A program made the position numbers and the translations under genes. A DNA stretch of 64,000 bases. It comes from Lingula anatina. Lineage: Eukaryota > Animalia > Brachiopoda. Where the stretch lies: NCBI GenBank assembly GCA_051362555.1, contig CM120640.1, positions 5,828,001-5,892,000 on the forward strand. Direction: 5' to 3'. The notes below the pieces were generated by a model, which made no database searches, was not told where the DNA came from, and saw only the letters and a program-made list of their open reading frames with translations. Shown here piece after piece: positions 1,485 through 34,267 of the stretch (the first letter of the stretch is position 1; each line of letters begins with the position of its first letter).

Positions 1485-1913
1485 ATGGGTCCTACGAGTT
1501 CAGATGGAGGGCACACAGATGGCGTGCTCGACAAGTTAGAAGAAACTAAGGCAGATATTTACATCTACCAAGTCCGTCCAGTAGTCCCCACAGAGAGGAG
1601 GCCGGACATCCAAGTGACAGTGAAAGTAATCTCAAACAATGATCAGTGGAATCAGCACTGTTTTAAAATCCCTGTCAGAACTGAGACCACTGTCGACGAG
1701 GCCAGAAGACGCCTCGGAAAGAAACCAAAAACAGTGCTCGGCACACCGGACTACGCCTTCTTGGCACATGGAAAACATATTCCAAAAGAGAAAGAGAAAG
1801 ATTTAAAAGTCATTGACATTCTTCCTAAACTTCTGAAAGATCTGCCCCAGAAAGGAGATAAAAGCAGTTTCCTGTTCCGGGGAAATGACGGACAATCAGT
1901 CGAATACAAAAAA
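1485..1913 (+). CDS. Gene A exon 1 (putative first coding exon); N-terminal region with a ubiquitin/beta-grasp-like pattern
   Basis: ATG in accATGg context at 1485, downstream of a candidate acceptor (aaacag, 1443-1448). The frame is open to a strong donor AAA|gtaagt at 1914 (phase 0), matching the phase-0 acceptor at 9277. Linkage across the 7.4 kb intron rests on phase compatibility only. Confidence 0.65.
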
Positions 1914-1996
1914 GTAAGTAAACAGCTTAGTATTTCATCATCATTGGACACTGAAAGTATGTACTAAACTTAAAATGTAATGTGAAAATAGACATA

Positions 1997-2288
1997 CACA
2001 CACTGGACAATAGATGTGCCACCCCCTGAATCACAGTAATCAAAAAATAGACATACACACAATGGTCAATAGAAGTGTCACCGCCTGAATAATCAAAGTT
2101 ATTAACCTGAAATGGCGGAATATAAGCAATGTCAGAATATCGATACAGTTGAATTGTTCAGTCAGAACCGTTTCTTTTGTGAAATTTGATGTTAATAAAA
2201 TGATACCAGGAGCATATCATTCCAGAGTCATTTATCTCCCCCAAAGTATTGGTTCAATAGGGGTGACACTTCTGTTGTCCAGTGTGTG
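1997..2288. mobile_element. Tc1/mariner-like MITE with TA target-site duplication
   Basis: ta|CACACACTGGACAAtagatgtgccacccc ... ggggtgacacttctgTTGTCCAGTGTGTG|ta, an imperfect TIR of about 30 bp. The left end plus flank is tandemly duplicated at about 2045-2090. Confidence 0.7.
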
Positions 2289-2805
2289 TACATACATATA
2301 TCAATAGCCTTTTACAGAACAAAACAAAAGGGACACACTATGAACACCTTCAAGGAATCTTCTATTATATTGATAAAATTAAATGAACAACAACATAAAT
2401 TTCTACCTATGTTATTATTTTCTAAATGACTCTCATTCTGAAATGTTATTGGTTTAAGGTACTGCTCAAATATTTAATGGTATTTATTTTGGTATATTAT
2501 TCATTGTTCGAAATAGCTCGGTTATGTCAGAAATCAATTTATGTTATCTGTTATTGAATTGGAGGATAGGGGTCATGACCTGACCGTGCTTGAATACTTG
2601 TTTTGTTTTTACATATAATGACCAAAAGTAAAATCGTAATTTAAGTGAACATGGTTTTCATACCAAACCTCAATTAAAACGCAGAAACAGTTACCGAAAC
2701 ATGTGCCTACGAAAGTGCAAAAGAAATTGTCTGGACATTGCATGCAGTTATGCTTCATTAACCACCTGAAGTTGGACAGGCCTGTAAGGCACATGACACG
2801 CTTAG

Positions 2806-3120
2806 GGACCATTCCCACAGATATTTGGATCGATCTATCTCATTGGGGAGTCTCACTAAAATGCTATCAAACTAACCGGATTAAACGTCTGTCACGCCTA
2901 GTAAAACTGTTAGGGGGTAATTATCTTTACCCGTAGCTGATTAGGTAGGCGTGACAGACATTTTTAAAAGCCTCGTGAACTGATAGCAACTTAGCGTGAA
3001 CCCCCAGGGAGTTAGGTTGATCCAGATGGATCGATCTAAGACTGCAATCCCACAGATTTTAGATCGATCTATCCCCGTGGGGTGTCTCACTAGATTACTG
3101 TCAGCTTAGCCGGCTTAAAG
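2806..3120. mobile_element. Degenerate foldback MITE plus a truncated second copy
   Basis: Internal inverted repeats gtctgtcacgccta (2887-2900) / taggcgtgacagac (2946-2959) and tgctatca/tgatagca. A direct repeat of about 70 bp ('cccacagat..gatcgatctatc..gggg.gtctcacta') occurs at 2814 and 3048. Confidence 0.6.
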
Positions 3121-3258
3121 ATATTTGTGTAGCCAAATTTTAACAAGCTCATCAAAGCAATGAGACTCAAACCCAGTTTTAAGATGAATATGGTTATTTA
3201 ATTGATTGTTTAATGGCGACCACAGACACACGTACACACTGATACATAATTACACTAA

Positions 3259-3495
3259 GGATGCGTTCACATGAAAAATCTATTTTCTAAAAATCTATTT
3301 GCGGTATCTTGTGATCACGGTCTGTGCCCTGAATACCCCACGGCGTAATTAGCCAGTTACTTCCAAAGCTGTAATTAATTCTCGGCGCTGCCAGTAATTA
3401 CGCCGCGGGGTATTCAGGACACAGACCGTGATCACAAGATACCGCAAATAGATTTTTAGATCTTTAGAAAATAGATTTTTCATGTGAACGCAGCC
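3259..3495. mobile_element. PIF/Harbinger-like palindromic MITE (237 bp), TAA target-site duplication
   Basis: taa|GGATGCGTTCACATGAAAAATCTATTTTCTA...TAGAAAATAGATTTTTCATGTGAACGCAGCC|taa. The arms are near-perfect over about 90 bp. A TWA target-site duplication and GG termini are typical of Harbinger. Confidence 0.88.
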
Positions 3496-4261
3496 TAAAT
3501 CTTAATAGATGTTTACTGGTAAGAGAAGAGATGGGGAGGGGGGGGGGGGGGAGGGCTAAGAAGGCTTAGACCCCCTACACAAATACATAATTTCTTTTTA
3601 CCTCATCGTCATAAACGTAGGAAGCAGAGAAGGGGGGGCATATAAGGAATTTTGGAACTACCACAATACGATGGCCTAAATTATAGCCCACTATAAGATA
3701 TCAAATTTGTGATTTTACCTCCAAATAAAATTTTCTTTGAGAAAAAGGCAATTTTGTCCTAACTACAAATCATTGTTCGACCCTGCACTTGGAGTCGATG
3801 TACATAGTATACCATTTCTAATTGAATAATGTACTTCTAAATGCCTAGCCAGTCATTTATCTCCCTGTACATTTGTGAACGAAATATCGACATCAGTTAC
3901 ATTCATTTGAGGGGTTGTGTCATTTTGAGGTGTGAATTGGGAAAGATAAGTAGCTTTGGATGATATGTAGACAAAGAAATTATAACTCTGGAAAATATTC
4001 AAATGGCCAGTGCAGCAAGACGACGAGACTGAGTATGTAGCCCAGAAAAAATGGCACTGCCATTATTTTTTTTCATATGACTGGTTGGTTGGAGCTCATG
4101 CATTGTAGAATTTAGTTTGAGTGGAGACGAAATTTTGAATCATTCCACAGAAATCTCGCTCACAATATTTTCATCCAATTGCAGTCCTTGATAGTGCATA
4201 CAAAGAAAGGATATATGTACATATTTGGCTTGGCTGGCGGGTAATACCTGCTATTGTAAAG

Positions 4262-4318
4262 TTTTTTTTTTTTTTTTTTTTTTTTTTGAGGCGGGGGGGG
4301 GGAGGGGGGCGGGGGGGG
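4262..4318. repeat. Poly-T followed by poly-G tracts
   Basis: A run of about 26 T followed by interrupted G runs. Confidence 0.95.
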
Positions 4319-5035
4319 TTGTATCATGTGTGTGGATTCAGAGTCAACACCCCGGCATAAATACGCTTTCTGATGTAACTGCAACCCATGTATTCCAATT
4401 GCAAGTGGCGGCCGTCTTGAATTTCTTTTTTCACAATACCCAAATATACACGATTGTTACCCACCTAATACACTGTTCACCCAAACCCAATATAGAGGTG
4501 CAATTGATGTCACAGGAATGCTCTTAAAAATATTTAGTGCACAGACTGCAAACTGTCTGATTATTTTAGGGTCTCACGTGAAGAAGTTTATATCAAAGTT
4601 TCACTCTCCTGGAACCATGATTAATAAAAAATAATTCAACTTCTATCCCCAAAAGGAACATACGTTACTGTCACAAATGCAAAACGTTCAATTACGAAAC
4701 TTCGAAAATTCAATCATCACTGGATTTTGTTCTTTGATTTATCTCCAACAAGTAGCCTATAACCTTGTAAAAAATAATAATATTTTTCTGTATAGAGCAA
4801 TTAATTGTCTTTGAGCTACTTTAGTTTGCTTGTCACTGAATTTGAAAAAACGGGGAAAATACACCCTACCGACAGTAAAATAAGCATTAAATGAATTATT
4901 TTTCCCCTCGTGCTCCAAATATTATACAGTATAAGAAATGTCAAACTATCATGGAATCACAATATATATTTTTCGGTCAGCAATAGAAAACATTGTTTTC
5001 TTTGCACACCAAGTACTTAAAATGAAACATTGTAA

Positions 5036-8004
5036 CCTCAAATCAAGTTCGGTCCCTTGGTTCTAAACTGTTTACAAGAAGCTCTGTACTGGTCCTACAC
5101 CTGTAAATGTCCATCATGACGAGTTCAAACGTGTTCCACAAACGTGTCCTTGACCGACTCTATTATGGTCTCCAATATTTGAGGTTTAAAACTTTGAGAG
5201 GCTACCAAAAAAACGTACGTAAACTGAATGTTAGAAAGAAATGCATTTCAATTATTTAAAATTGTATTATATTTGCTATAATATATTCTCATATTTTTTA
5301 AAGAACACAAAAGTTTTGCTGCGTGACTACCTTTAGGATGCTTAATACTACTACAATATTTATAGCGTTCTCTGCTTCTTGTGTTCAAGACAGTTGTGAT
5401 TGTGTGCATGTTGGGTAGGGGCATCTCACTCACCGTCATGATCGTGCATTCTTTATTCCGTTTCAAGTTAGTATAAGTTCTTATTTTCATATGTACGCGT
5501 TTATTCCCGTGAATTTCCTAAATGTCCACTGGACTGTCAAGAACTATAGTGATTCAGTCTAGAGCTTATATAGGCACAGTATAATGGATTTTTACTGCAT
5601 ACGTTTTATTAATCTATTAATACTGCAATTTATGTAAGGAGCTCCCTATGAAGGATAGTCTAGCTACTTTATTCTTTTACGCATTTTGTTTTCAAATTAA
5701 TTTTTTTTTTCAATTTTCAGGTTTTAGGGTTTAAGTATGGTCACTATAAAACTGCCAATATGTAGGCGTTTTGTGCAAGTAGTAGAAATGGATTATATTA
5801 TTTTCGAATCAGCGGATCTAAAATAAACAAAGTTTATTAATAAACGCCCAATATATCCGTAATTAAAGCCTATTTGCCTGTTTGACTGCATTTAAAGTTA
5901 AAACTAAGACGCAACTCACCATAATGTGTGTTTGATTGACGGGGCTGGTTTAGAGATGTGGTGCATACCTTATTGGTATTTATACCTAGGTCTTCACAAG
6001 CTATATATCCCATATCATTCGGATAATGTTCAAGTGATGTTTTGCTACAGGATGACAACTTAGCATCCCAATTGTATTGCTTTAGGAGCGTACAGTGAAG
6101 GGAATATCATGAAAACCCAGTAATCTGACCAAAGCCATTGTGGCGATCTGATCGACTAATGGTAGAGGACAGATCCAGTATAACTACGTAGTATAAGTAT
6201 GCATACCAATGCAATTTACTGTTACACAACGCCGTACTCCCTTGGGCAAAATTAAAGGCTAACATCCCCGTTTCAATTTACCACTTCAAGGGAAAGATTC
6301 AGAACAGCGCCCTGGCCTGAATTTTGATCTTACAAACTGACCCCTGGAACAAAAAGTGAAAATGTGAGCCACATATATTTAATTTAATATCAGAATAAAT
6401 ATATGACACGTTCCATTACTTTCACTGGTTTATGTCATTGCACCCTCTAACAGGGAAAGCAGTCAAAAGTTATTAAATGTAATATGAAACATTAATAAAA
6501 ACGTTATGCAAAAAGTGAGCGGTTGGGATAAGTTAATTTACGCTCTCATCTTTCATATGAAAAAAAAAAGAATATTTATTACAAGAGTTCAGGGTGGGAG
6601 GGGAGCATAAGGGCATAGCAACTATTATGTTATGAAATAACGATTTTAAATAAAAAAAAGTCAAGTTGATCCTTTCTACTGATATACTTAATCGTGTTTC
6701 GTGACTATCTAGCTTGGTCGGTTAAGAAGATATATATATATATACCCCCCCCCTGCCCACACTTATTCCAACCTGTAAGATTGGAAAGTCGGTAGTCTGG
6801 CTCGGGCAAAAAAATCTCCACATCTGGTTTCTATCAAGCGCGTTCAGAGCTTAGGACATACATATTGCTCCTCGGGCCAGGAAATCTGGAGAGGGGGAGT
6901 AGAGGAACACGTCTTCTCAATATGGAAAGCTATATATTTTGGTAATTTCCTTTGTAACATTTACAAACACTATAAAATACCCTTTCTCGATTTGATATCA
7001 TGTTCTGTAAATATCCTGAATTTAAATACTAATGTTAAATGTCAGAGACTTTGATTTATGACGAGAGAGAGAGAGAGAGAGGTTAAGACATTCTGTAAAT
7101 GTCCCGAACTAGAGGAGGGTGTTATAAACTAAACACATCTTGGCAATAACCCGTAGACAGGTAGCCGGCAGAGTGGTTTAGTTATTATGATCAACATTAT
7201 TGTTTATATTTTTTATTAATATCAAACAATTTTACCGTTTGTAGCTATACCTGTTTGGAACCTGTACTCTGCGCCATATAATAGCAATGGTGCAAAGTAG
7301 TGATATTGTAAAATCCTGCCATAAAATTTTCTTCAAATATCAAATTTTATTAGATGGTTGAATAGAACAGTTATAGAATTCAGTATAATGATACTGAATT
7401 GTTGTAAAGACATGTAGGAAGCAGGGTGACCATATATGCTCGGAATTTTGTCGGAGAGGGAAATTTCTCGAGTTTGTTCTCTGCCCTGTGAAGCCATATT
7501 TTGTGGCCTGAGATGCCGTATCCATTCTTCGTGACCTGACCTGCCAAAAGCAAGTCTGGGCGCTCTTTCGATTCTTCCACATTAATCAAGATACGGAGTA
7601 TCAATTACAAGTGTCCGGAGGGGGGGGGGGGCATGAAGGGAATAAATAATTATAAGTAGTATCCTTGCGACACAAGGTTACTCTGCAATTTATATCTTTC
7701 AATTTATGCTGTGAAATAATAGTCAGCTAGTACGTTGATCTCGCGAATCAACCAAATGACCGTTAGTTGAGTTGCTTAACTGCAAGTAATTAATCCCCTC
7801 CCCTCCCCTCCCCCGAACGTCATACTGGCAGGTTTCCAAATGAAGACTATACCGCAGAAAAAGTTTGGGACCCAAAAGAGAGTCGGCCAAAGACACGGTT
7901 GGGGAGCACGTTTGAACACGCCATGATGGACATTTACAGGTGTAGGGCCAGAACAGAGCCTCTGGTAAACAGTTTAGAACCAAGGGACCGAACTTGATTT
8001 GAGG
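5036..8004. repeat. Long-range inverted repeat pair (about 140 bp arms at 5036-5177 and 7864-8004)
   Basis: cctcaaatcaagttcggtcccttggttctaaactgtttac... at 5036 is the reverse complement of ...gtaaacagtttagaaccaagggaccgaacttgatttgagg ending at 8004. The outer 40 bp are identical and the rest is diverged; no target-site duplication is seen. Confidence 0.9.
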
Positions 8005-8353
8005 ACCAGAAGAGAGGCTTAACATACGTTACCTAGTATTAGCCATGACGCAAAGCCCCTTAAGTTATAGTTTTAAAATTTTTAAAAACGTCCTGACGGT
8101 TGGCACACATTTTCTTTTTTTCAGTTGTATCGTTACAGATAAAAAATGATTAATCACTTGATATGCAAAAGAAATAAAAAACACAGGTGTACTGCACACT
8201 TCCCTGGATTAAAAGGGGTTTTCAACATGGCGCTTGAAAATAAACTCTTTTGCATAAAGACAATATTAAAGCAAAAACGCTTATAATTCTCCTTGGAAGG
8301 TTACAACCAATTAAAAAATCCTCCCACATTTATTTCACATAGGACTGGCTTAA

Positions 8354-8690
8354 AGGGATAATAACTCTTCGTTTTGGCCAAAAAAGGAATTTTCCTGGAG
8401 TACACAACAATTTTCCCATACTTACCAATGGTTAATGAATCCATTTTTACATTCAAAGTTAGTCCCTGGTTTTTTTCTAAAAAGTTTGATTTTTTGTTAA
8501 AACCTCTTAAGAGATTATAACAGAGTACAGCCATCAATGGAGGTCACGTGGTCTTAAGACCAACTCAGATATCAGAATAATAGCTATAACTGCTGTTTTT
8601 GTGGTAAAACAGAATCTATTATATTTCTGTGAGTTATTCACAATGTTTTTATTGTGAAATACAAATCTCATACGGAGAGTTATTATCCCT
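8354..8690. mobile_element. Kolobok-like MITE (337 bp), TTAA target-site duplication
   Basis: ttaa|AGGGATAATAACTCttcg ... cggaGAGTTATTATCCCT|ttaa. A TTAA duplication with RR...YY termini fits Kolobok rather than piggyBac (CC...GG). Confidence 0.8.
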
Positions 8691-9276
8691 TTAATAAAGT
8701 AAAAACTATCATTTGGGCGAAAGTCTTTGTTTGACCAAAGTTATTCTTTAATAGCCAAGCTAGCAACCACTATTTGCAATCGCTATCCCTCTCACACCCA
8801 TAACTTCGGATCTGTCATCCGTTGACAAGTGCTTAAATTTGACCTAGGTAATGTCAAATAGTCATTGTTTGCTGTGGGGAAGAGAGAATCCAAACTGTAA
8901 GCATAAACAGAGCTTTAGAACCAAAAGCATTATTAAAAACCCAAATTCAAGAGGGTGTGACAATCATTTTGAGCAACGGTGTATATAGTTGCCTATCAAA
9001 TAATGTAGAAACACTGAAAAACACTGAAAAACAAACATAGACCGTCCTTCGTTTTTTTTTTCGTTAATCATTATGATTATTTTATGTGATTGACGACAAT
9101 GCTTCATTTAAAACATAAATTATAATGGCGTTTCTATAACTAACAGATATCTTGTTTTTACTTAAATCTAAATACTATTTGTCCACTTGTTTCAGATAGA
9201 TGGACTGCCGGTTCGAACCACGGCCACTGTCCATCACTGCCATGATTTAATGGTGTTATTTTCTGTTTAATATTAG

Positions 9277-9427
9277 GTTCCCCTGGACATTCATGGCAAA
9301 AGAGCGGTGGTTTTATGTGCAGGAATCCTCCACATTCTCCCCAGTTGTCTGCAGTTACACCAGGTGGAAGCCACAGGGTTTTCATTCATCCCTTTGGATG
9401 CTACGTCACACCTTGATGAGTTATACG
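9277..9427 (+). CDS. Gene A exon 2 (VPLDIHGKRAVVLCAG...SHLDELY)
   Basis: Acceptor ttctgtttaatattag| ending at 9276, an open frame, and donor G|gtactt at 9428 (phase 1), which joins in frame to exon 3 (G+AC=Asp). Confidence 0.75.
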
Positions 9428-9642
9428 GTACTTACATGTATTATTTTTTTAAGAGTTATAAATGCATAATTCCCTATTCATTTAAACTTAGATGTCACTA
9501 CATGGTGATACGAGTGTCCACTTAATGGTTTTTATAAATTGTTCCATTCATGTCATTTGAATTCAGGTATTTTATGTGTTACACATTAACATTAATATAT
9601 GCATATGCAAATTAATTTAGCACTTTTTTCTTTGAATTTCAG

Positions 9643-12600
9643 ACGTAAAAAAAGTTGAACTTTTCGCCTCTGCCACCGCCGACCGAATTAATGACCTTAG
9701 CAACATAATCGGGGAGTTAAACAGAAGAGGCCAAGAAATTGCATCAATAACCGACCACCGGGGTGCAACGCCATTGCACTACGCAGCACAGCGAGGCTTA
9801 CTGGAAATTTGCGACACCCTCCTGTCCCACGGGCCCGAGCTGATTCACGTACAGGATAACAACGACCGTCTCAGTCTTCACTATGCCCTGTATCGACGGC
9901 AATTTGAAGTAGCCATATATTTGATTCAAAAGGGGTCTGACGTCTTGCTTGAAGACCATCACGGTGTGACTTGTCTTTCTTTATTGAAAGTGATTCCGGA
10001 AAGAGTTTTGCTCGATTTCACGGAGTCAGACGAAACAGACTTTGCGGACCTCGACCCAGCTCTAACCTACGCATGCTTAGAAGCAGGAGTACGCAACAAT
10101 GACTTAGCTATCGTTACCAAGACACTTCCACACTGTGAGGACTGTGATCAGCAAAACCAACTCGGGCTCACGCTGCTGCATGAAGCTGCACTCTTCGCCG
10201 ATTCGGAAGTAGTGCGGTGTCTTGTCGAAAAGTTTTCCCTCTCTGTCTTTGACCACAGTGGTTACTTGCCACTTCACTATGCTTGCCAAAGAGGGCACAG
10301 CGAAATGATACCCCTCCTGATTAACGCTGAAGTGGAGAATGGACAGATTAACTTTGCAATATTATGTGCACTTTACAGACAGAGGTACGCTGCTGTATCT
10401 GTGCTTCTTGAGAAAGAGGGTTTATCGTTAGAATACGAAACGGTAGAGGTTCTCATCACAGCCATAGAAAGTAACTGGCAGGGAAGCAAACGTGTGCTCC
10501 ATAACTGCCACCATCCATACGTTTGCACACACTTCCTTAGCCATGCTGCGTGGGAAGGAGATGAAGCTCTAACACAATCACTACTAAACAATGGTGCAGA
10601 CATTAACTTTCAGGACTTGATGGGGCGATCTGCTTTGCACGAGGCTGCACAACAAGGGCACATGAACGTTGTCGAGGTTCTTTTAGCAGCACCAGAGACG
10701 AGCCTAAATCTTCGAGACTGGAGGGGGTCTACTCCTTTACACTACGCTTGTGCAAATGATAAGGCAGATGTGGTTCACAAACTTGTTCTGCAAGACTCGA
10801 TTAATGTACAGTTGACTGATGTCACTGGACGGACTCCTTTTCTTCTTGCGCTCTATTCTAAAGCTAAGGAGGCAGTTAAAACCCTCATTCACCATGCCAT
10901 AGGCAAAATTAATCCAAGGAAGATGGACAAATCAAGAAGAAGTTTTCTTAACTTTCTCCACTTGCTCGAGAGTGATGACTACATATTGCTGAAAAATGTC
11001 GGGGAAGAAAGTTCCGTTCACATCCAAGACCCATTTCCTGAAGAAAAAACAGAGGCATACGCTCCGTTCAAAATCAGCGAAAATCTGAAACTCATATCAC
11101 AAGACTTTTACGGCAAAAGGCTTTTTAATCACTGGTCAAATTCCACGTACATGTTGTGCCAAGCACACGGATGCTATGACAAGCTCTGTAAATATAGTCC
11201 AGACTACTACGAATCTAAATGCCATTCAGTGCCTTTCACATTAACAAAAACGCCAATAATGAAGGGTGGTTTATGTACTAACTGTAACCTTTTCAAGGAT
11301 CTTTGGGACGAAGAGAGAACAGGCCTGTGTGAATGTGGTAACGAATTTGTTGATGTTTGGTTTGATTTGGACGTTTTACTGAGAGCTTACCTTGACCAAA
11401 AAACCTCATTAGTGGTAAAAAGCCAATCTCAACTTCAGAAGACAGCATACGCATTCCATGGCGAAAAGATACCTTTAAGTGTAAGTCCCCTGCATGAAGC
11501 TGTTTTGAACAAATCAGCGACAGCATATAAGTGTCTTGAACATGAATTAGAGGGTATTGTTTTCAGAGATAACTTTGGCAGGACACCACTTTTACTAGCT
11601 ATTGATGTACTCAGTGTAGAGATGGTCCAATGTATTCTCTCCACCAGCCAAAATACCACGAGGGAACCACATTTGTTACACCGTGCTCTAAACTTGGAGA
11701 CATGGACAGAAGAGGACCGGGCATCACAATATCAAATCGTATCTTGCCTTTTAGATCATGGGTGTGATCCATTTGAGCCGAATAATGACTTTTCGTTTTC
11801 TGCATCTCTGTTTGTATCCATCCGAAACTGGGTGGGTTTGAAATTTTGCAAAGAAAGTTTATCTAATGTGGCAACCGCTTTCCAAGTGGCATGTGTCCTA
11901 GGTTTGGACAAGATAATAAAGCTGTTCCTTGTAGGGAGGTATGCACCTCCAGAAGCAATGGCTTTATGTATGGCTGCACAGTGTGGTCACGAGAAATCTG
12001 TCAATGTTTTGAGTGATTGCTTCATCGCAATGTGTAAAGAACATAGGGAGGATGTCCAGCTAAAACTTTGTCGTGCGCAATCTTCTTTGTTAGCTCTCTT
12101 TGCAGGCCTTCTTATTCCGAGCATTGAATCCCCAGCCAAGAGCAAATTGAGAGGGTATCCATCATGCCACTCAGTACGAAAGATAATGGAGATTTACGAA
12201 GCTGCTGGCTCAGAATTTGACATATCACCACTGCAACTGGTCCTCAAGTCTCCTTCTATGACAGAAGAAATCGAGTCAACAGCGCTTAGGATTATTGAAT
12301 CACCCTCATACATCGGAGGGGGCATTTTGCATTCGCTTTGTCACGATGTTCTAACAGCCTTAGAAACACACCATTGGCGCGTTGCCATTGCAATTCTGGA
12401 AAAACATGGCCCCCACAGACTGTGGTTCTGTAGCAAACATTGTGAGCCGAATTTTACTGGTTCTTTCTCCATCCACAACAAGTCTGAGCAAAAAGCTGAA
12501 TGTGCATCGTATGTTTTAGCAAAAACAAATCAGCACGAAGGAAGGGAAAATATGTACACATATGCAGATGAGCCATTGGATTCAGTTGAGCATCTTGCTT

Positions 12601-13299
12601 TATACGGCGACTGGAAAAACCCTCTGATGACCGATATTCTGTGTCTCGCGTCGCATCCTCTTGCACCAGAGGAGTTGCCTCAAAAACTTATCTATGGTAC
12701 ATACTTTAAGTTGAACAAGACCCACATAGTGAGACACGTACAGATGGCTGCAAAAGATATATACTACCAGTACCACCAATACTGGCCTGCTCATACAGAA
12801 GCTTTCATGAAATTGATCAAAATCTGCCCAGTCATCATTGATACGGTAGTACCATTTCCTTCCGAATACCAGTGGTTTAACACACGGTTTCTGTCTCCAG
12901 ATCAATCACAATTTCTCCAAAAAGCGATTTCCATCAGAGAGACATGTGGTTTGTTTGGCTGCGACGTGGCTGGTGCTGCTATTGCTACTGGGGACAGAGA
13001 GGTCATACAAAATGCTCTCCTTGGAACCGACCACTGCTGTCCTAGGTTTCCGACCAATATCCAAGGGAAAACTGCACTTGAAATAGCATGCTATGCTGGT
13101 GATCTTTTGACGGTGAAACACATTATGTCTACGTGTTCGCAGATACCACACGTATTGTTATCGCAGGCAGCATTACTGGCATTTGGGACATATTCAAATG
13201 TTCTCGAGCCTTTTGATATTGTGCTCAAAGATCAGTGGCCTTGGACTGCCCTTGATAGGACATTGTGGAATTGCAAAAACATATTCCAGAGACTGCAAA
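9643..13299 (+). CDS. Gene A exon 3 (3.66 kb): ankyrin-repeat blocks with a Cys-rich insert
   Basis: Polypyrimidine tract and ttcag| ending at 9642; contains the 1180-aa ORF. Canonical ANK motifs include GATPLHYAAQRG, GYLPLHYACQRGH, GRSALHEAAQQGH, GSTPLHYACAND, GRTPFLLA, GRTPLLLA and GKTALEIAC. Donor A|gtaagt at 13300. Confidence 0.93.
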
Positions 13300-13526
13300 G
13301 TAAGTGGTTTAACTGACATCGAGTACCATGGTTAAATGGTTAAATGTATGGATAAGAGAAAAGTTCTCATAAAGTGTACAATAGGGCTTCTGGTGTATTA
13401 TGTCGGTTTTAAGTAACGTGGTTATAATCAAAATTTCTGATAAGTGGTGAATTTTATTTTCCAATGTTTCAGTGGTTTACATATGTTATCTGGATGCTAA
13501 TTTACACCCGTATTTTAAATTGACAG

Positions 13527-13584
13527 GCAATCCAACAGCGAATGCGAAGAACCGATTGTCAATCATTGAGCTGCTCTGCGACAG
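13527..13584 (+). CDS. Gene A exon 4 (58 bp, SNPTANAKNRLSIIELLCDR)
   Basis: Acceptor tgacag| ending at 13526 and donor AG|gtgagt at 13585. Phases 1 and 2 match both neighbours, with no stop codon. Confidence 0.85.
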
Positions 13585-13703
13585 GTGAGTCTTTTTTTAA
13601 TGTTAATTGTATTGGGAGAACGTTAATTGTTACATTATATCAACCATTTCTTTGAATTGTGATTGGCTCTATATCTTAGGTTCATCTTATATGTTTATTC
13701 CAG

Positions 13704-13832
13704 ATTGGATGTCACCGGTGCATTGCAAAGTCCGAGATGCGTCCGTGACCTGATGGTAGGGGCATGCTTGAACGGTCTTACAGATGCTATAACCGTAATT
13801 TTGAGTAGAGCTGTCTCAGGTGATTGCTCATG
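13704..13832 (+). CDS. Gene A exon 5 (RLDVTGALQSPRCVRDLMVGACLNG...DCSW)
   Basis: Acceptor ttattccag| ending at 13703 and donor TG|gtatgt at 13833; phases 2/2 are in frame. Contains an ANK-like 'LMVGACLNGLTDAITVIL' segment. Confidence 0.85.
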
Positions 13833-14143
13833 GTATGTATGCGTTCTTTGGTGATGACAATACAGCATGTTCCCCAGCATAGTGTTCGTCTATTTGTCGG
13901 GGTAGAATAAAATAAATTTTGCATATATATTTATTTACTTTATATGTGAATTCATACTTTTAAATTATTTCAAACCATACATTATGTCATGATAAAAAAT
14001 TCTTTCTAAAAATTTTAATTTTATATGGCTTTTAGTGTGTAGCTAATAAATTGCTATAAATGAATGAGATACTTCTTTTTGAAAACGCGTATAATTATAT
14101 ACAACACCATTATCATCACCACATTCATTCTTTTCTTTTCTAG

Positions 14144-17100
14144 GATATGGTGTGCCATTAGCGCATCAGTGGTTTCTGACCACCAAGAATGCGCAATAGC
14201 CGTTCTAGAGTATACAAAGCACAAGGCGCTGACCGTGCCAGTTGACGAAATTGGGCTCACTGCGATACTCAATATAGCTGCCAACCTTAAACAGTGGAAA
14301 CTCATTCATTACCTATGTTTTGAGCAAACATCGGTGTCCATGGTGATGACAAACCCAAATGACACAATAGCCTTGATTTCGTTGAAACTGTTAGCTATTA
14401 ATTCCTCTTGGGGGAAGATGAAAGAGGAAAAACGGGGACTGATGTTCAAGCCAATTCTGCATTTGGCATGCGAAGCTGGACAGTACAAAATAGTGCATTG
14501 CTTACTACAAAAAATGGATCAAGATGCTGTAGGATGGATAGTTAACGTTCGAGACAAAAGCAAGAGAACGCCGATTGACTATGCACTGTGCAACCATCAT
14601 TCAAAGATTGCAATATTATTACTTATATACGATGCCCAGTTACCAAACAGAGCCTACGTTGGTCTTAAAGAGGCGTTACGCTGTTTCCCAGAGAGGAACG
14701 CTAGCGACATAGTTCCAGTTGCTGGTTATCTTTCCACGACGCCGCAGAAAAGACGTTTAACAAAAAAGGCTGTAATGAAAGACTGTCAAATAAGGCAGAT
14801 TTGGGATGGCTTTGGAAACTTGTATGCAGAAGACTTTAGAAGGATTTTAAACGAGAAAAGGCAAAATAAAAGTACATGGAAAAATGATACCGATACCATT
14901 AACAGCAGCTTATCCGGCACCACAAAGACAAAAATCCATTCTCATGGTTTTCCCGACTTTCAGTATTATCACTCAACTGGGGTACTGCCTCATCTTTCGA
15001 GTATTAAAGCACTCAAGTGGGATAACCCAGATGACGTGCCACACACACCAAAGCGAGTACAGAGAAAAATCTGGAAGAATAAAGGGGAACTATCAGCATC
15101 AACGGAGCTCAAAGTTAACCCACTTCCTGTCAGACAGAGAACAGAACACGAAGGCAGAGAAATGACAGCTTATTTCACGCCATTGGCGAATGTTGATCCG
15201 TCAGAGACACTGACTTCAACTTATCAATCGTGTTTCAAATGTGTTGTGAAGGATGATCACACCATGTCCTGTCAGCAACAAGACCAGTGTAAGGTTGATC
15301 AGAGGGATATAATGCTGAGTTTGTACGAGATTGATTATGGAAGATACATGGAGCCGCGGAAGACTAATAGACAATCAAACTCCAGTAACTGCAACGACTG
15401 CATGGTGTCTACATACCAAACAATCTATGGCATTACAGACAATAAAAAGGCAAATAGTTCTACTAAATTTTCTAAACCAGTTAATACTGACAAAGGTCCC
15501 ATAGAGCCAGTTGTATCTGCAATGAATGAAACAACGAAACACGAATCCCAAAGCGCCCGTAAAACCAACGCAGAGAGAAACCACATGACTAAAGAAGCTG
15601 CGTACACCAAGGAACAATTTAGACCGAAGTTAAAAGGAGACAGCACCCGTGCGGCATGCGAGATGGTGTCCTCTTGTATCGATGACCAAACAGAATCCAA
15701 AACGCTCAGAAACGCTTTTAGATATGTAAAAGACCCAAAGAGATGGGAAAGCTTATTACATGCTGCCTGTGCTTATGGTGACTCAGAACTGGTTGATAAG
15801 ATACTAAGGGAAAGGCCAAGCATTGTCAATAAAATGGACAAGAAAAACAGATCCCCACTTTTCTATGCTGCCTTCAACGGCCACAAAGGCATTATGAAAA
15901 TATTGATAGCCAATAATGCCATTTTAAATGAAGGCTGCAATGTTCTACTGGCAGTGCTCATGCACCTTTGTAAAAAGCGTTGTTTGAGGGAAGGAGGTAT
16001 TCATCTTATGTTAAAGTGTCAGGACAGTTGCGAAAAGGACCCACATTTGTCAGGTTTACGTGACATTAGAAGAAAAGCATTTGAAAGCATAATCCAATAC
16101 AGCGACAGTCACCATGATGTGCGAGCACTTAATCTTGATGTTGAACATGAATATAGTTCAGAGGAAGCATTGGAAATGGTAGAAATGCTTGCTTGTGAAC
16201 AAAAGTTGACTAATCCATTCGATGAGAGGATGTATTTTACAGCAGCTCTGCTTGGGGAAGAATCTATTTGCAATGCCATTATTAAACGCCAACCAAGCGA
16301 ACAACATTCTACTAATACCAATAACGACGAAAGCGACAAGAACAACTCTGATTCATTTACTACAGATGTCAAAAGCGGTGGTGAGGCCAAAATGACATCA
16401 ACCAGTTTTGTTGATTTGTTAATTGCAATCTACCTCATTAAAGGGAAACATTTTCAATGGAACCAACTCACTTTACAGAAGCAAACAAAACTGATGACAC
16501 ATTTAATAGAAAAGTTTCACTATCTTCCTAGTCCCTTTGCTTTGGCACGTTTGGTGTTGCAGGGATTTTGGCCTGTTGTTCTGACCACCCTTCAGAAAAT
16601 TGATGTATCTGGGGGCATAGCTAGTGACCTGGAAAACACGCTGTACATGGTCATGTTCAAAGCAAGCGAGAGGAACCAAACTGATAGCTTAAAGGTCGTT
16701 CTAGAACACTTACGTCACAGCAAATCAGATAAAAGTTATCTGATTACGACTTTAAAATTAGCTGTGCAAAACAACAGTCAGGAGTCTTGCACGCTTTTGT
16801 TAAGAGAAGGAGCAGATCCAACAGCACGGCCAGTATTTTCAGATTCAGCGTTGAAGCTGAAGTTCAGAAAATTAGGATGGTCGGCACTTCACACATTGTG
16901 TTCTGTAGGTGACTTGGAAATGCTTAACACATTTGCAGCAGAGATGGGTGGCGACCTGGAATCGATGCTCCGCACCGTGGCCCAAGAGCACGAATTAAAA
17001 AAGGAATTGCTGTTCCTGTGTGCTGCATATGGTCGTGAAACAATCATAACCACTTTTAAAGCCAATGGATGGGATATAGACGTAACTACTAGTACTAAGA

Positions 17101-19391
17101 AATTGTCAGCAATATCCACCCGGATCAAAGGGAATTCCCTCTTGGAAACTGCAGCAGAAAATGGACATGAGTCTCTTTGTGTGTATTTGCTCAGAAATTG
17201 CAATGTCCTGCTGCAACAAAATGCACTTTCTAACGTCTTGCGCTCTGCATGTGCTAGGGGCATGGACAAACTAACTGATGCAGTTGTTTTATATTATTCA
17301 CAAGACCCTAGTAGATCAGCTACTCTCAAAACGGCTCTCCTTTCAAGCGATACCCTTGCAGCCAAAGATTACCCCAGTCAGCCAGTGGTTTATGCCCATT
17401 CAATGGGCCATTATGGGGTTGTAGAAAAGCTACAATTATGGCTTGTAAAGTCAGGTGAAAAACCGATAATTGTACCCACGCCATTTGACAGTAAAAGGCC
17501 TGTGGGCTATCTCAGAAACCACATAGTAGAAAACGAAGAAAAACACAAATTAAGAAGTCCATCTGAAACAAACATCCAAGAAGCATTGGAACTAACAGCG
17601 GCTGAATTGTTTATCGGTTACCTAAAGGGACAGAAATATACAGATTCTTGGAAGTCTTGGTTCACTGACAGTATTAAATTGACATTTCCAAAGTTTCTGA
17701 TGATTTTTAGATATTTGCCTTCAGCAGCATCCATGAAGTTCGTGGAAATGGCATCGCAGGAGGAATTTCAAGCCAATCCAAACTTTTGGGAAGATGTTCT
17801 GGCGGCTACCATTCGATACAATAGAAGGGAAACGTTTGAAGCAATTTTAAACCATGCATTATTTCGAAAAAAAGAACAAACCATTATTTCATCAGCCACA
17901 GTACTACAAGAAGCCTGTTTGGCTGAAGACGCCTATTATCTCACCAAGCTTCTTGCAAGAGGCTCAACAGAATATCTGACCAAGAATGACAAAAACGGGA
18001 TTTCTCCTATTGGTTATGCCAGTGCCATGGGAAAACAGCAAATACTAGCTGCAATGTCTGATGGTCTTTATGTGGACGAGCATTCCGATCATGGTGTAGA
18101 CGAGGACGGCATAGCGGAAAGTTATAGTCCTTTTTGCGCTCTGTGCCTGCTACATGAACATCGTGGGTGGCGAAGTGGATCTTTTTTCCCTCTTGTAAAT
18201 ACTTCCACTGACACAAACATGAAGGAAGTCCATGAGAGCGTTTCGCAGCCTGTTTGTTTCAAATACCCTGTGCAATTTTCTGAGTTTATGACGATACAAT
18301 ATGACTTGAAGTGCTATTTAGAGCGTCTTACCGACTCGAGGACTGCGGCTGAGCAGATATATCCAATGTCAAGTCCAGCAAATGTCAATATTTGCCGTTA
18401 CTTTTTAGGTGACTACAAACGTTATGAGATGTCAACTACTGACGACAGAAATCATGCGCTTACACAGTGCATCAAATATGGCGATGAAAATTCCTTTAAA
18501 ACAATACTGATGGCAATGAAAAGGAATGACATAGCATTTAAATTGCTGTTGAATGAAATTGCAGTCTGCGGAAGAAAACGTCTTTTGGAATATTTAATCA
18601 CCACGTTTGACACCAGCGGTTTAGTGCAGCATTTTGGCAGTCCTAATCCCCTGGAATTGGCTATTGCATTTGGAAACACCGAACTTGCATTTTACATTGT
18701 TGAAACGTTTTCGTCTTTGCCATGCGATTATATACGGCCGATCCTGGACTACTGTGACGGTATACCTACAGAAGACGACTCAGAAGATCATTCCTTGGCT
18801 AAGAACCTCACAAAAGATTCATTCTTAATGGCACGCTGGATTCTTGGACAGAACAGACCTGGTGATGAATCCTGGCACCGATCGTTGATGGATCAGAAAA
18901 GCACGCTCAGTCATCCAGACGTTTGGCTCGCCGCACAGTTCAAAGAAGAACATCTCAAAATATTAGAAGCAGCGCGTGCATTTCAGTCGTATACCCTGCA
19001 GACCACCCTGACACCATACGATGTGACGGTAGATTATAGAGGACTGGGTGCTGTTATACAACTTGACAGTTTCATATCAAAAGTCAGAGCTCAGTCTTTA
19101 CTGGTCTTGCAAAGTGCGAAAGATGCCATCGAGGAAAGAGACGACGGGAAGCTACACTACACGGCCCCCGATGGTAGCAAAGAGAGGTTAAAGAAAATGA
19201 TTCTCATTGCCAGCTCAGGCCAGAATGGAAAGCACAGCCTGAAAGTGAAAAGCCGTGGAGAACTAGAAATAACGGTAGCCGTAATTGAAAATAATGGGAG
19301 CATTATAGAATCGCAAGGTTTTCTACAAGATGATATAATGATAGCAAAGAAGGAGGTCGATGAAGAACATCTCCCCTTTCTGAAATCTAAG
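14144..19391 (+). CDS. Gene A exon 6 (5.25 kb): further ankyrin blocks, a low-complexity linker and the start of the repeated alpha/beta modules
   Basis: Acceptor cttttcttttctag| ending at 14143; lies in the 1778-aa ORF. ANK motifs include PILHLACEAG, RTPIDYA, SLLHAACAYGD, RSPLFYAAFNGH, GNSLLETAAENGH, GISPIGYASAMG and NPLELAIAFG. Donor AAG|gtagtg at 19392 (phase 0). Confidence 0.92.
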
Positions 19392-19561
19392 GTAGTGTAA
19401 TAATATATCAATAAGATTGGAAAAGTTGAAAAATAATTCCATCACCTTTTGCTGTAAATAAGTGTAACATATTCTGTAAATTTATTTTATTTGAATGTTA
19501 ATGGTATTGAAAGTCAACGGTAATTTATGAAGCACCTCTCATTTATTTAATTATATTACAG

Positions 19562-22500
19562 ATTCAAGACATCTTTGGCCTGAATGTCCAAGTGGAGATG
19601 AGCTGGGGTTCTTTTGATGTCATCAAAGACAGGTCACAAAGATTAGAAGTAATACGTAAATTTGCAGATTCAGAAACTTCTTCGACGTGCAGTTTTGGGG
19701 GGTTTATGGCAACGTTAAACCAATGCGAATACTGGATAGAAAGCATCAGAGACATTGCAGATTCGCATATGTGTGAATCATTGAAAAAGTCTCTCCCCGC
19801 CATTAAAACTATAACATTCCGATATTCCACAGACGTGCGTGATGACATACCATTCAAGGATATTAAGACTTTACTCGATCAGAAATCGGTGGCTTGGCTA
19901 TTTAAGTTCACTCACGAAGCAAAGAAGTCGGAATATAATCGAGGTGTCGCAACGGAGTCGACATCCTGCAACCGCGGTGCATTTGCCCCGTATGTGTACT
20001 GTAGGCTTTTCCAAAAGGCGTTTATAGAATTATATCTGTTAGTGCAAGCGTTTCACATAAGGAAAGAACCAACGCTTATGGAGGAGCAAGAAGATTCGAA
20101 AGGTGATAAGACTGATGACAACCCCCTTCAGTTCCGAATAGAATGGTTATCTGCATCCCATCTTGGGAAACCGCAAGAAGTTTTGAAATTCATACATAGG
20201 CCATTAAAACAAGCTTTGATGACATCAGTAGATAGTTTCGTACTCCAGAAACACATTGAAGCACGTTTTGACTATTTGCACATCCAGTTTTCTCCTCAAA
20301 AAGACCAAAAGAAAATTGTTAGAGGCGGAACCAGTATTAAATTTATATTGGGCGTTTCAAAGGACTGCACCACGCATATAGAACTTCCAGACTTCGACTC
20401 CGAATTTTTAGATATTCAGAAACAAGAACTGAAGACAGCAGAGACCACAAAATATTTAAAACAAAATTTTGCAGACGCGCTGCAAAAAGTTTCCGACGCC
20501 ATTAAAATGGAGTACAGTCTACCTTCTCTCACAATGAACCCGGATTTCAAAGCATTGATTGACGAAGCCGCTTCTTGGTCAAATGAGTATTCCTCTCACA
20601 CAATAGAAACCTATCTTTTCAACAGTTGTTGTTCAAAACGAGTGAAAAAGGCTTTTTCAGATAGATTGTCCAGGGCGATTGCCAGGCTTTGTTCTATGTA
20701 TAAGGCCGTAGAAGGAAAGAGCAAAATGCGCCTGGCATTTTTGAGAAGATTACACAATCAGTCAGTGATCCACGATTCAGATCGAGATCTGGTGATAAGA
20801 AGCGGTAGCCAAATGCGGATCATACAAAGACCTGATCTGGACCAACAAAAAATAACAAATGTGAAAAACAATTGGGAGATTCTTTCCATTGCAGACGTTC
20901 TTCGTGATTATTCTGGAAAAGGCAGTTGTTGTGATGAAATCGAACTGGTTTTGTATGACAGTGTGTGTTATCGAATAGCTGGTAGCGCAGGTGCACTTGC
21001 TTTACTGAAAATGTTGCCTTCCAGGATCACCGTCAGTAACAACAGAAAAAAAGAGCAATCCAATGACCCAACAACATTGGCGATAGAGAGTTCTTCAAAC
21101 TCGCTGCCTCTTGTGGTACATGTTCCTTCAGACGATAGATCAGTATTAATCCACCCTCGCGTTCTGGCTATAGAACGGAAGCGACGTGGTTCAAGTATAT
21201 TTATCAGCGTTGACAGTGATTTGTTTATGCATAGGAAAGAGGGAAGCAATCTTGATGTTGTCCTTGACTTCATAGATTACCTAATGCATGCTAGACACGT
21301 GCATAACGTGCCTTTGACAAGGCAAAAATTAATGCCGACGGAGTACCCAAAATGTTGTTCTACTGGCAAAGATAGAAAACCAATTCCTAATATCGTACGT
21401 GACAATCTTGTCCAATTGATAAAGGTTGTGAAAAAGGTTAATCCAACGAAAAACCAGGAAGAAAATGCTATTAGAATCGATACTGATGAAGACACCATGG
21501 TGTTTTTCTTGTTTGACGCTGATATTTCTTGGGAGGACGTCCAGGTTGCGTACTTGAAGTACCTCATTCGCCGTGAAGCTGTGAAATTTGCTGGGGATTT
21601 GTCTGCCGCGATGGAAGCTAAAATTGACGCTAATACTTTTGAGTTCAAATGCGAAAATGGGCTCTCGCCGTTGAAAGAACTTGGAGCGTTGTACAAAAAT
21701 ACTAGCACAATATTTGAACCATTTCATACGGCGCTCTGTTTCTTAATGCAGCACTGTAAAAAGTACAGTGGAAAAGTGCAAGGAGTTAAGTCACTGTGCT
21801 TCATCGCAACCAACGAGCACAACAAAGATGGACGAACTGTCCGACCAGCGGGACAGATTCTTCAATATTGCCTGCCATTTAGCAAAGCTGCTGAAAACAC
21901 ACATTTATTCTTTGGCGCAGGCGAGTTAGGAAAGATTTTGATTCAGAATTGTTTTGACTCTCCTAAAGCCCTTGAGTACATGGCATCGGTTCCAATGCCG
22001 ACGGAAACGGCCGTGAGTCCTGAGACAATGGTATACGCTTACTTCGGTTTGGCCATGGCAGAGACATCATTTGTCATACAAGGAAGAAATGTTCTGGGCA
22101 AAGAGATTAAAGACACACAAGACAAACAAACAAACGGTCTGCATGTAGATGTATTATCTGAAGATCAGTCTCCATTGTCAGGTGTAAACGTTGCCGTAGA
22201 AAACATCGCAGCGTGTGAATGGAGAGTAACTTGGAAACCAACTGATAAGGGAAGATATCATATACATGCCAAGCTTTTTGGGCAGCACGTTAGAGGAAGT
22301 CCATTTGAAGTGCACGTACTCAGTGAGCCTAGTAAAATGCCATTTTCATTAACTAAAAACAAACATGAGGCTGATATTGGGATCAATCGTCAAAGTCAGT
22401 TACCAGTGGTTATTGTTCATCCTAAACCACATGTGAGCAAAGTCAGCACTTTGACGCAAATAAAAAAATTCAGGAGTTCCCCTTGTGACGTCTATGGACT

Positions 22501-22800
22501 TTCGTCAAATGCTAGTACATATCTTCTACGTCAGCTCATTTCGCAAGAAAAACATTGGTTTTATCGAAACAGTAAGAAAACGAAAATGTGCATGTTGCAC
22601 TGCAGTACCGACGTCCAGGTAGAAGAAAGTCGCCTTGAAGGAACACAGGAGGTTGCGCTGTTGAACTTAAACACACCTAACAATAATTCTGTGTTAACAT
22701 TGGAGCCACATTGCAGACATTGTGGACAGGCAGTGGATGTGATCAGTGCAGGTGTAGTCAAGCGAGCTGGAGCTCCACTTTCTGTGCTGGTTACGGATGG
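19562..22800 (+). CDS. Gene A exon 7 (3.24 kb): alpha/beta modules, PH-like segment, filamin-type Ig repeat, C-terminal CxxC
   Basis: Acceptor ttatattacag| ending at 19561, in phase 0 with the 1070-aa ORF; donor GG|gtaagt at 22801 (phase 2). Confidence 0.92.
21983..22318 (+). other. Filamin/ABP280-type Ig-like repeat domain within gene A
   Basis: Signature residues: 'TSFVIQGRN..G', 'LHVDV', 'WRVTWKPTDKGRYHIHAKLFGQHVRGSPFEVHV', matching the filamin consensus Y.V.Y.P...G.Y.I.V...G.HI.GSPF.V.V. Confidence 0.88.
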
Positions 22801-23012
22801 GTAAGTTTCAACACATTAATGTCATATTCATGATTTTAAAAACATCCTAAAGCATTTTTTTTAATACGACACAATACCATAACTGTTCGCTTCTAGCTGT
22901 TATATTTTATAGTTTTAAGTAAAGAAGTGTCTATTCATTCAAAAATTTCCGATTTTTATCGTATAATCACCACTCTTACACTTGCTTCAACTATGAAATT
23001 TGTCTGTTTTAG

Positions 23013-23067
23013 AAACGAAAGTTTGACAAGAAAGAATTCCATGGGCAGCGAGGAGGATGAAATATAG
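23013..23067 (+). CDS. Gene A terminal coding exon 8 (GNESLTRKNSMGSEEDEI*)
   Basis: Acceptor tgtctgttttag| ending at 23012, phase-2 join, TAG at 23065-23067. The summed CDS is 12,966 nt, or 4,321 aa plus stop. Confidence 0.75.
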
Positions 23068-24038: not shown

Positions 24039-24055
24039 AATAAATTAACAATAAA
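24039..24055 (+). terminator. Candidate polyadenylation signals for gene A (two AATAAA)
   Basis: AATAAA at 24039 and 24050, followed by T-rich sequence, about 1 kb downstream of the stop. The motif is common in AT-rich DNA. Confidence 0.4.
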
Positions 24056-34006: not shown

Positions 34007-34267
34007 GTAAGTACGAGAGAGAGAGAGACAGAACTAATGTTAGTTATCTACTATTATAGAACATGTGCAAGGTACTGAATATAATAGGTGTATTATAATG
34101 TCATAAAACTAGTATTAAAATTATTATATACATACAAAATTTTTTATACGGGATGATTAGTTCAATGCTATTTATGCACAAAATGACTGGGGTAATTTTC
34201 ACTTGAACTTTACCATGGCTTTAATTTTACCGTCAATAGTCTGAATAAAAACCATTTTGCTCTCTAG

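What the first reader, a model, noticed from the sequence alone, without database searches (positions are those of the whole stretch)
1485..23067. Three 'separate' giant ORFs form one protein of about 4,300 aa with an unfamiliar domain architecture
All seven introns are GT-AG with compatible phases (0,1,1,2,2,0,2), and the total CDS is 12,966 nt without stops. The domain order is Ubl-like, multiple ANK blocks interrupted by Cys-rich and low-complexity inserts, repeated alpha/beta modules with a PH-like insert, a single filamin repeat, then a CxxC tail. It lacks the ZU5/UPA/DD of true ankyrins, the RING/B-box/NHL that usually accompany single filamin repeats (TRIM2/3/71), and any channel helices. 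I cannot assign it to a named family.
Basis: partly seen in the sequence, partly recalled or inferred. Interest (0 to 1): 0.72.

Follow-up and report, generated by a model that had tools for sequence, protein, structure and literature searches.

The report
Giant orphan brachiopod ankyrin scaffold
This is one real eight-exon gene of the lamp shell Lingula, already listed as an uncharacterized 4,321-residue protein, which likely acts as a non-enzymatic binding scaffold and whose back part likely carries divergent copies of an unnamed small domain also found in bacteria and archaea.

Summary
Observation confirmed. Eight exons and seven GT-AG introns (phases 0,1,1,2,2,0,2) give a 12,966-nt CDS and 4,321 aa. 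It matches RefSeq XP_013414475.1 (Lingula anatina, uncharacterized) at all but 2 residues, so the joined model is not new. RNA reads show 3 of 7 introns, and variants are biased to silent changes (pN/pS about 0.26).

Ankyrin blocks and one filamin repeat are real. Ubl-like and PH-like labels got no profile support. It is not an ankyrin, TRIM-NHL, filamin or TRP channel. Residues 3225-4053 have no relative among 1.84 billion representatives.

New here: a profile of an unnamed 130-136-aa prokaryotic family hits module M2 (aa 3204-3350, across the exon 6/7 joint) at 20 bits. Decoys reach at most 6.5, and no Pfam family matches. The surrounding region scores z about 4-5, suggesting further degenerate copies. 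I chose the family from memory, and the match rests mainly on 35 columns.

Best reading: a cytosolic multivalent scaffold; function is inferred. The scan had not noted this on other DNA.

The parts
1485..1913 (+). Exon 1 (aa 1-143), start ATG; possible beta-grasp-like domain, not supported by a profile
   Evidence: no relevant Pfam or PDB hit; intron 1 not tested with reads
9277..9427 (+). Exon 2
   Evidence: same protein as XP_013414475.1
9643..13299 (+). Exon 3, first giant ORF: ankyrin blocks with Cys-rich inserts
   Evidence: Pfam Ank_2 E 6e-57; 227-nt joint in RNA reads
13527..13584 (+). Exon 4
   Evidence: joints on both sides in RNA reads
13704..13832 (+). Exon 5
   Evidence: 119-nt joint upstream; downstream intron 5 not listed
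14144..19391 (+). Exon 6, second giant ORF: scattered ankyrin repeats to aa 3001, low-complexity inserts, then module M1
   Evidence: Pfam Ank_2 E 5.5e-30; repeat census
19562..22800 (+). Exon 7, third giant ORF: alpha/beta modules, filamin repeat, CxxC tail
   Evidence: 212-nt joint downstream in 3 runs
23013..23067 (+). Exon 8 coding part with stop; reads continue into the 23476-23992 bin; AATAAA at 24039 and 24050
18903..19337 (+). Module M1 (aa 3062-3206): weak match to the second half of the prokaryotic domain
   Evidence: not significant alone (HHalign probability 3%)
19326..19939 (+). Module M2 (aa 3203-3350), split by intron 6: likely homologue of an unnamed 130-136-aa prokaryotic domain
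   Evidence: 20 bits; HHalign probability 76% over 35 columns; decoys at most 6.5 bits
19973..20905 (+). Modules M3 and M4 (aa 3362-3672): possible very degenerate copies
   Evidence: only as part of the region-level score; not significant alone
21566..21979 (+). Module M7 (aa 3893-4030): weak match to the prokaryotic domain
   Evidence: best peak of the B-type profile on the whole protein, z 3.2; HHalign probability 10% and 0.4% with the B alignment
22055..22309 (+). Single filamin/ABP280 Ig-like repeat (aa 4056-4140)
   Evidence: Pfam PF00630 E 3e-8, above cut-off; filamin-A chain 2j3s E 3.6e-8
22712..22723 (+). CxxC (aa 4275-4278) in an unassigned C-terminal tail; a CxxH lies at aa 4234
   Evidence: tail has no significant PDB or Pfam match

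Best explanation
A single expressed eight-exon Lingula gene encodes a 4,321-residue protein without membrane helices that likely works as a cytosolic, non-enzymatic, multivalent binding scaffold. Shown: the exon structure; ankyrin repeats from aa 234 to about 3001; one filamin repeat; no recognised catalytic domain. Likely: M2 is a divergent copy of an unnamed prokaryotic alpha/beta domain (about 75%), and M1, M7 and perhaps M3-M4 are further copies (about 55%). Inferred mechanism: the ankyrin blocks and the helical stretches between them would form a long solenoid that grips partner proteins. The tandem modules would add more binding surfaces. The filamin repeat would act as a rigid spacer or dimer site ahead of a possible metal-binding tail. 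The protein would thus bring several partners together rather than catalyse a reaction.
For: Model intact and matching RefSeq. Three introns seen in reads. Of 88 variant places reported, the 40 best supported were listed: all are coding, none makes a stop, 21 are third-position, and pN/pS is about 0.26 over 37 codons. Pfam finds only ankyrin and filamin families at significant E-values. No HExxH, P-loop, HRD or DFG motif; no transmembrane stretch. Module homology: an 88-member prokaryotic profile gives its one reported domain on the whole protein at aa 3210-3244, and no locally shuffled copy of 1000 exceeded 4.7 bits against 11.3. On the M2 fragment it scores 20 bits (E 6e-4 scaled to 24,737 families), with both halves colinear. 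None of 24,736 Pfam families matches the same fragment. 2,288 overlapping bacterial decoy windows reach at most 4.9 bits and the neighbour gene 6.5. Region 3050-4040 beats all 120 shuffles even without its best peak (z 3.7-4.6 for four family profiles), while reversed and Sm-domain decoy profiles give z under 1. The M2 score falls from 20 to 6.6 bits when the exon-6 part is left out, which independently supports the intron-6 joint. Ankyrin and filamin repeats as binding modules: established knowledge, recalled.
Against: No partner, location or phenotype was measured. I chose the prokaryotic family from memory because it resembled M2, so its P-value is post hoc. The significant stretch is about 35 columns; the second half scores 0.5 bits. 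M1, M3, M4 and M7 are not significant singly, and the modules are not alike pairwise. A direct search with M2 over 401 Bacteroidota genomes gave only 8 chance-level hits. The region test used my own scoring script with hand-set gap costs. Both AlphaFold2 models were single-sequence and unusable (pLDDT 32-33), so no fold is confirmed and a hidden enzyme domain is not excluded. Introns 1, 2, 5 and 6 have no read support from my calls. The prokaryotic family itself has no known function.
Confidence: 0.55

Rival explanations
1. Intracellular immune or death-pathway sensor: the repeats bind invader or damage molecules and signal to a death-domain partner.
For: The next gene on the same strand has many LRRs, a weak COR-A match and a Death domain. 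No relatives found. pN/pS of 0.26 is not tightly constrained. PMC8195603 (passages read) links ankyrin repeats to invader recognition in marine-invertebrate death-domain proteins; it does not mention filamin.
Against: The protein has no Death-fold, TIR or NTPase domain of its own. Adjacency alone is weak. No paralogue expansion was seen (one-member cluster), although the genome could not be searched. The prokaryotic family has no PADLOC match.
Confidence: 0.2
2. Cryptic enzyme or ubiquitin-system factor: the N-terminal domain, the modules or the Cys/His tail is catalytic (for example a ligase or protease), with ankyrins recruiting substrates.
For: Cys/His clusters at aa 699-758 and 4234-4278. 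The N-terminus has a beta-grasp-like pattern by eye (recalled, untested). One bacterial locus places three family genes before an M48 peptidase gene.
Against: No RING, HECT, kinase, P-loop or HExxH signature. 0 of 120 family segments carry HExxH, and HHalign to two BSP zincins gave 1%. The invariant columns of the family alignment are Gly, Leu and Trp, which look structural.
Confidence: 0.15
3. The model fuses two or more genes, or exon 1 belongs elsewhere; the real proteins are shorter.
For: Introns 1 (7.4 kb), 2, 5 and 6 lack read joints in my data. The RefSeq model is a prediction on the same DNA, so it is not fully independent.
Against: All splice sites and phases fit. Exons 3-4-5 and 7-8 are joined in reads. 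The M2 profile match runs across intron 6. GC3 is 0.42 in both halves of the gene.
Confidence: 0.07

Closest known systems
XP_013414475.1 / LOC106176565 / UniRef A0A1S3JVN8 (Lingula anatina, uncharacterized protein)
   Same: Same gene model; 4,319 of 4,321 residues identical.
   Different: The record's precomputed Pfam list holds only ankyrin and filamin families; no function is given. Full-text searches for both identifiers found 0 papers.
Unnamed prokaryotic 130-136-aa alpha/beta family (for example WP_076453934.1 Zobellia, WP_299617668.1 Tenacibaculum; 'hypothetical protein')
   Same: M2 fits the first third of the profile and keeps its Gly and Trp positions; the second half aligns colinearly but weakly. 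In 32 of 84 prokaryotic loci there are two or three family ORFs, which echoes the proposed tandem modules.
   Different: Prokaryotic members are single-domain, or fused behind an Sm/Hfq-like barrel (weak PDB hits, E 0.05-0.6) or before DUF6882. M2 has an insert of about 20 residues and only part of the family's central acidic-Gly-Lys motif.
True ankyrins (ANK1-3, UNC-44)
   Same: Giant size, many ankyrin repeats, presumed adaptor role.
   Different: Repeats are scattered and degenerate; no ZU5 or Death domain was found.
TRIM-NHL proteins (TRIM2, TRIM3, TRIM71) and other single-filamin-repeat proteins
   Same: One filamin/ABP280 repeat near the C-terminus.
   Different: No RING, B-box, NHL or HECT domain was found.

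Membership tests
True ankyrins | One block of about 24 contiguous ankyrin repeats | tested here: not met
   19 matches in scattered blocks over aa 234-3001, 15 of them seeds of the profile used
True ankyrins | ZU5-ZU5-UPA and Death domain | tested here: not met
   No such Pfam match in exons 1, 2, 3, 6 or 7 or in 18 fragments
TRIM-NHL | Filamin repeat | tested here: met
   PF00630 34.7 bits, cut-off 26.9
TRIM-NHL | RING, B-box and NHL propeller | tested here: not met
Filamins | Actin-binding CH domains plus many filamin repeats | tested here: not met
   One repeat, no CH match
TRPA/TRPN channels | Six transmembrane helices after the ankyrins | tested here: not met
   No 19-residue window above 1.8 hydropathy; no channel family
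Unnamed prokaryotic alpha/beta domain | Profile match above decoys (module M2) | tested here: met
   20 bits against at most 6.5 for decoys; 0 Pfam families
Unnamed prokaryotic alpha/beta domain | Full-length match including the central conserved motif | tested here: inconclusive
   Second half colinear but 0.5 bits; the central Gly and the Pro are not kept
Unnamed prokaryotic alpha/beta domain | Further copies (M1, M3, M4, M7) | tested here: inconclusive
   Region-level z 3.7-4.6; none significant singly
Unnamed prokaryotic alpha/beta domain | Same three-dimensional fold | tested here: inconclusive
   Single-sequence models had pLDDT 32-33; the prokaryotic domain was not modelled on its own
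Ubiquitin-like / beta-grasp (N-terminus) | Profile or structure match | tested here: inconclusive
   No Pfam beta-grasp hit at E up to 3; no relevant PDB hit; no structure model
PH domain (insert) | Profile match | tested here: not met
   Fragment 20762-21331 gave only an Ig-like family at E 0.019, below cut-off
Zincin-like peptidases | HExxH motif or profile match | tested here: not met
   No HExxH in the protein or in 120 family segments; HHalign 1% against only two BSP sequences, a low-power test

The most novel reading that the evidence does not exclude
The protein carries a tandem array of up to five copies of a still unnamed domain that bacteria and haloarchaea encode as small proteins, often as neighbouring paralogues with one fused to an Sm-like barrel. 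A brachiopod has built this domain into a giant ankyrin-filamin protein that serves as an intracellular sensor or signalling platform beside an LRR-COR-Death gene. That would define a new domain family spanning bacteria, archaea and an animal. Rough odds: M2 homology 0.75, tandem array 0.55, the whole reading including a sensing role about 0.2.
Probability: 0.2. Interest if true: 0.7.

Novelty: new variant of a known kind. Interest (0 to 1): 0.42.

Why it matters
The joined gene itself is already annotated, so that part is ordinary. What is new is the link between an orphan region of about 1,000 residues and a widespread but unnamed prokaryotic domain. If confirmed, the link gives a small, tractable bacterial protein with which to solve the fold and find partners. 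It would also show an undescribed domain reused in tandem in an animal scaffold. GC3 is the same in the module region, the ankyrin part and the neighbour gene (0.42), and an intron splits M2, so any transfer from prokaryotes would not be recent.

Tried and rejected
Homologue searches found only the protein itself or nothing: word-index searches for aa 3225-4054 (1 hit among 3,216 candidates of 1,890-5,000 aa), aa 2540-3330 (1 among 5,267 candidates) and aa 3200-3345 among shorter proteins (0 of 125); phmmer over 1.84 billion representatives with aa 3225-4053. Residues 1-2539 and 4055-4321 were not searched against these collections.

ESM Atlas: no usable hit for exon-7 residues 1-400; only scores under 0.9 with inconsistent families for M1. 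tblastn of M2 against plasmids gave chance hits at E 9. An ankyrin block found no locus in prokaryotic genomes. NCBIfam gave only ankyrin cross-matches far below cut-off. PHROGs gave nothing significant.

AlphaFold2 on aa 3041-3224 and on exon 7 was unusable, so no fold search was run. Self-BLAST showed no internal repeat. The one low P-value among module pairs (M6-M7) comes from overlapping boundaries.

Run search: no RNA holder listed; runs were offered by species label. Complex prediction for the two bacterial paralogues gave no verdict (score 0.00, alignments not used). The idea that the prokaryotic domain is an inactive zincin got no support. No whole genome is held, so paralogues in Lingula were not counted.

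Papers: searches were seen as search listings only, and no listed title or abstract start described this protein. Searches returned 0 papers. PMC8195603 was read as seven passages only; its supplements were not opened. Earlier scan notes: nothing by sequence or place; one unrelated sea-urchin ankyrin note by words, not used.
Full report
1. The observation. The window looks like intron-rich animal DNA of about 40% GC with long plus-strand ORFs at 9636-13313, 14064-19397 and 19511-22801. Joining exons 1485-1913, 9277-9427, 9643-13299, 13527-13584, 13704-13832, 14144-19391, 19562-22800 and 23013-23067 gives 12,966 nt and 4,321 aa. A database search returned a 4,321-aa protein named 'uncharacterized protein LOC106176565 [Lingula anatina]', XP_013414475.1, which differs from my translation at 2 residues. 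The joined model is therefore the existing annotation.

2. Expression and constraint. Four RNA runs laid on 9000-24500 gave 151 reads. Joints of 227, 119 and 212 nt match the lengths of introns 3, 4 and 7. The first is placed 2 nt off the GT-AG cut, which a variant at the exon start would explain (inferred). Introns 2, 5 and 6 were in the stretch but not listed at this depth, and intron 1 was outside it. So 3 of 7 introns have read support from my calls. Reads continue into the bin ending at 23,992, ahead of AATAAA at 24039 and 24050. Of 88 variant places, the tool listed the 40 best supported. All are coding and none makes a stop; they give 19 silent and 18 replacement codons, pN/pS about 0.26. 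This fits a protein under moderate purifying selection. The two most informative runs are mostly 90-99% like the window and may come from another population.

3. Domains. Pfam finds ankyrin repeats in exon 3 (E 6e-57) and exon 6 (E 5.5e-30) and one filamin repeat above cut-off in exon 7, which also matches filamin-A in the PDB. A self-built profile gives 19 ankyrin matches over aa 234-3001, of which 15 were its own seeds. There is no transmembrane stretch and no HExxH, P-loop, HRD or DFG motif. No ZU5, Death, RING, B-box, NHL, CH or HECT family was found. The Ubl-like and PH-like labels were not supported by Pfam or PDB; absence of a hit does not exclude those folds.

4. Relatives. Residues 3225-4053 match only this protein among 1.84 billion representatives. 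Word-index searches for aa 2540-3330, 3225-4054 and 3200-3345 found no other protein. The cluster has one member. The first 2,539 residues and the last 267 were not searched against these collections. Single-sequence AlphaFold2 models were unusable.

5. The alpha/beta modules. Pairwise comparison showed no significant likeness among them. From memory, M2 resembled a small uncharacterised bacterial protein. A motif search over 401 Bacteroidota genomes hit 7, of which 5 held such a protein. A profile found it in 9 of 401 genomes, in 11 plasmid records including haloarchaea and alphaproteobacteria, and in 365 of 601 metagenome stretches, from which 78 loci were kept. The family has no significant Pfam, PADLOC or PDB match and no consistent NCBIfam match; the named members are all hypothetical or uncharacterized proteins.

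An 88-member profile built without the Lingula sequence reports one domain on the whole protein, at aa 3210-3244, the start of M2 (11.3 bits). None of 1,000 locally shuffled copies passed 4.7 bits. On the M2 fragment the score is 20 bits, E 6e-4 scaled to a Pfam-sized library. Both halves are colinear, and HHalign gives 76% over 35 columns. No Pfam family matches that fragment. Bacterial decoy windows (2,288, overlapping) reach 4.9 bits and the neighbour gene 6.5. The match crosses intron 6 and drops to 6.6 bits without the exon-6 part. This supports the joint, and it may be why searches with exon 7 alone missed the family.

End-to-end scoring places further peaks at M1, M3, M4 and M7. Region 3050-4040 beats all 120 shuffles even without its best peak (z 3.7-4.6), while reversed and Sm-domain decoy profiles give z under 1.

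Against this: the family was chosen after seeing M2. The second half of M2 scores only 0.5 bits. M1, M3, M4 and M7 are not significant singly (HHalign 3%, 1%, 1%, 10%). A pairwise search with M2 over 401 genomes gave 8 chance-level hits. I put M2 homology at about 75% and a tandem array at about 55%.

6. The prokaryotic context. In 32 of 84 loci there are two or three family ORFs; among loci of 3 kb or more, 19 of 36. The usual second gene carries an N-terminal domain whose five PDB hits are all Hfq or Sm proteins, at weak E-values of 0.05-0.6. In one genome three family genes, the last fused to DUF6882, precede an M48 peptidase gene. The four annotated plasmid neighbourhoods examined share no named neighbour gene. 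No function follows from this, beyond a tendency of the domain to occur in more than one copy.

7. How it likely works. The recognised parts are binding modules (established knowledge, recalled) and no catalytic signature was found. The most likely role is a cytosolic multivalent scaffold (0.55): an interrupted ankyrin solenoid, tandem alpha/beta modules as extra binding surfaces, a filamin repeat as spacer or dimer site, and a possible metal-binding tail. All of this is inference. An immune-sensor role (0.2) is suggested by the downstream LRR gene with a weak COR-A match and a Death domain. It is also suggested by passages in PMC8195603 on ankyrins in invader recognition, but this protein has no signalling domain of its own. 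A cryptic enzyme (0.15) cannot be excluded without structures. A mis-joined model is unlikely (0.07). GC3 is 0.42 in the modules, the ankyrin part and the neighbour, so there is no sign of recent transfer.

8. Verdict. The gene is real and already annotated, belongs to no named family tested, and is an orphan in its C-terminal 40%. The new lead is the probable link to an unnamed prokaryotic domain. Searches for the two identifiers found no paper. Novelty: new variant of a known kind. Interest 0.42.

Noticed in passing
window 26524-34519 (+): Neighbour gene: a 2,511-codon ORF with a long acidic N-terminus, many LRRs and a weak COR-A match (E 0.013), followed by an exon with a Death domain (E 1.5e-9 at 34270-34518). 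It looks like a degenerate Roco-type LRR-Death protein.
   Followed up: partly
window 28005-28220, 27635-27915, 28282-28668: In-frame duplications inside the neighbour's acidic N-terminus: a perfect 108-nt tandem pair and two older pairs at 87% and 71%.
   Followed up: no
window 3247-3507 and 5036-5180 / 7860-8004 (intron 1): A hairpin-like inverted-repeat element (66-nt arms, 97%) and a pair of 145-nt inverted arms 2.7 kb apart; possibly non-autonomous DNA transposons.
   Followed up: no
L137:1288-2832 and L148:346-3406: Bacterial cluster of three genes of the unnamed family (single-domain; Sm-like fusion; DUF6882 fusion), followed by an M48 peptidase gene and preceded by what look like histidine-kinase and response-regulator genes (recognised by eye). 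No Pfam, NCBIfam or PADLOC model for the family.
   Followed up: partly
L230:5001-10007: On a Natrinema plasmid the family gene lies between a death-on-curing toxin gene and a 1,412-aa hypothetical protein with weak AAA/STAND matches below cut-off.
   Followed up: no
protein residues 477 and 941: The window's translation differs from XP_013414475.1 at two residues; allele or assembly version, not resolved.
   Followed up: no
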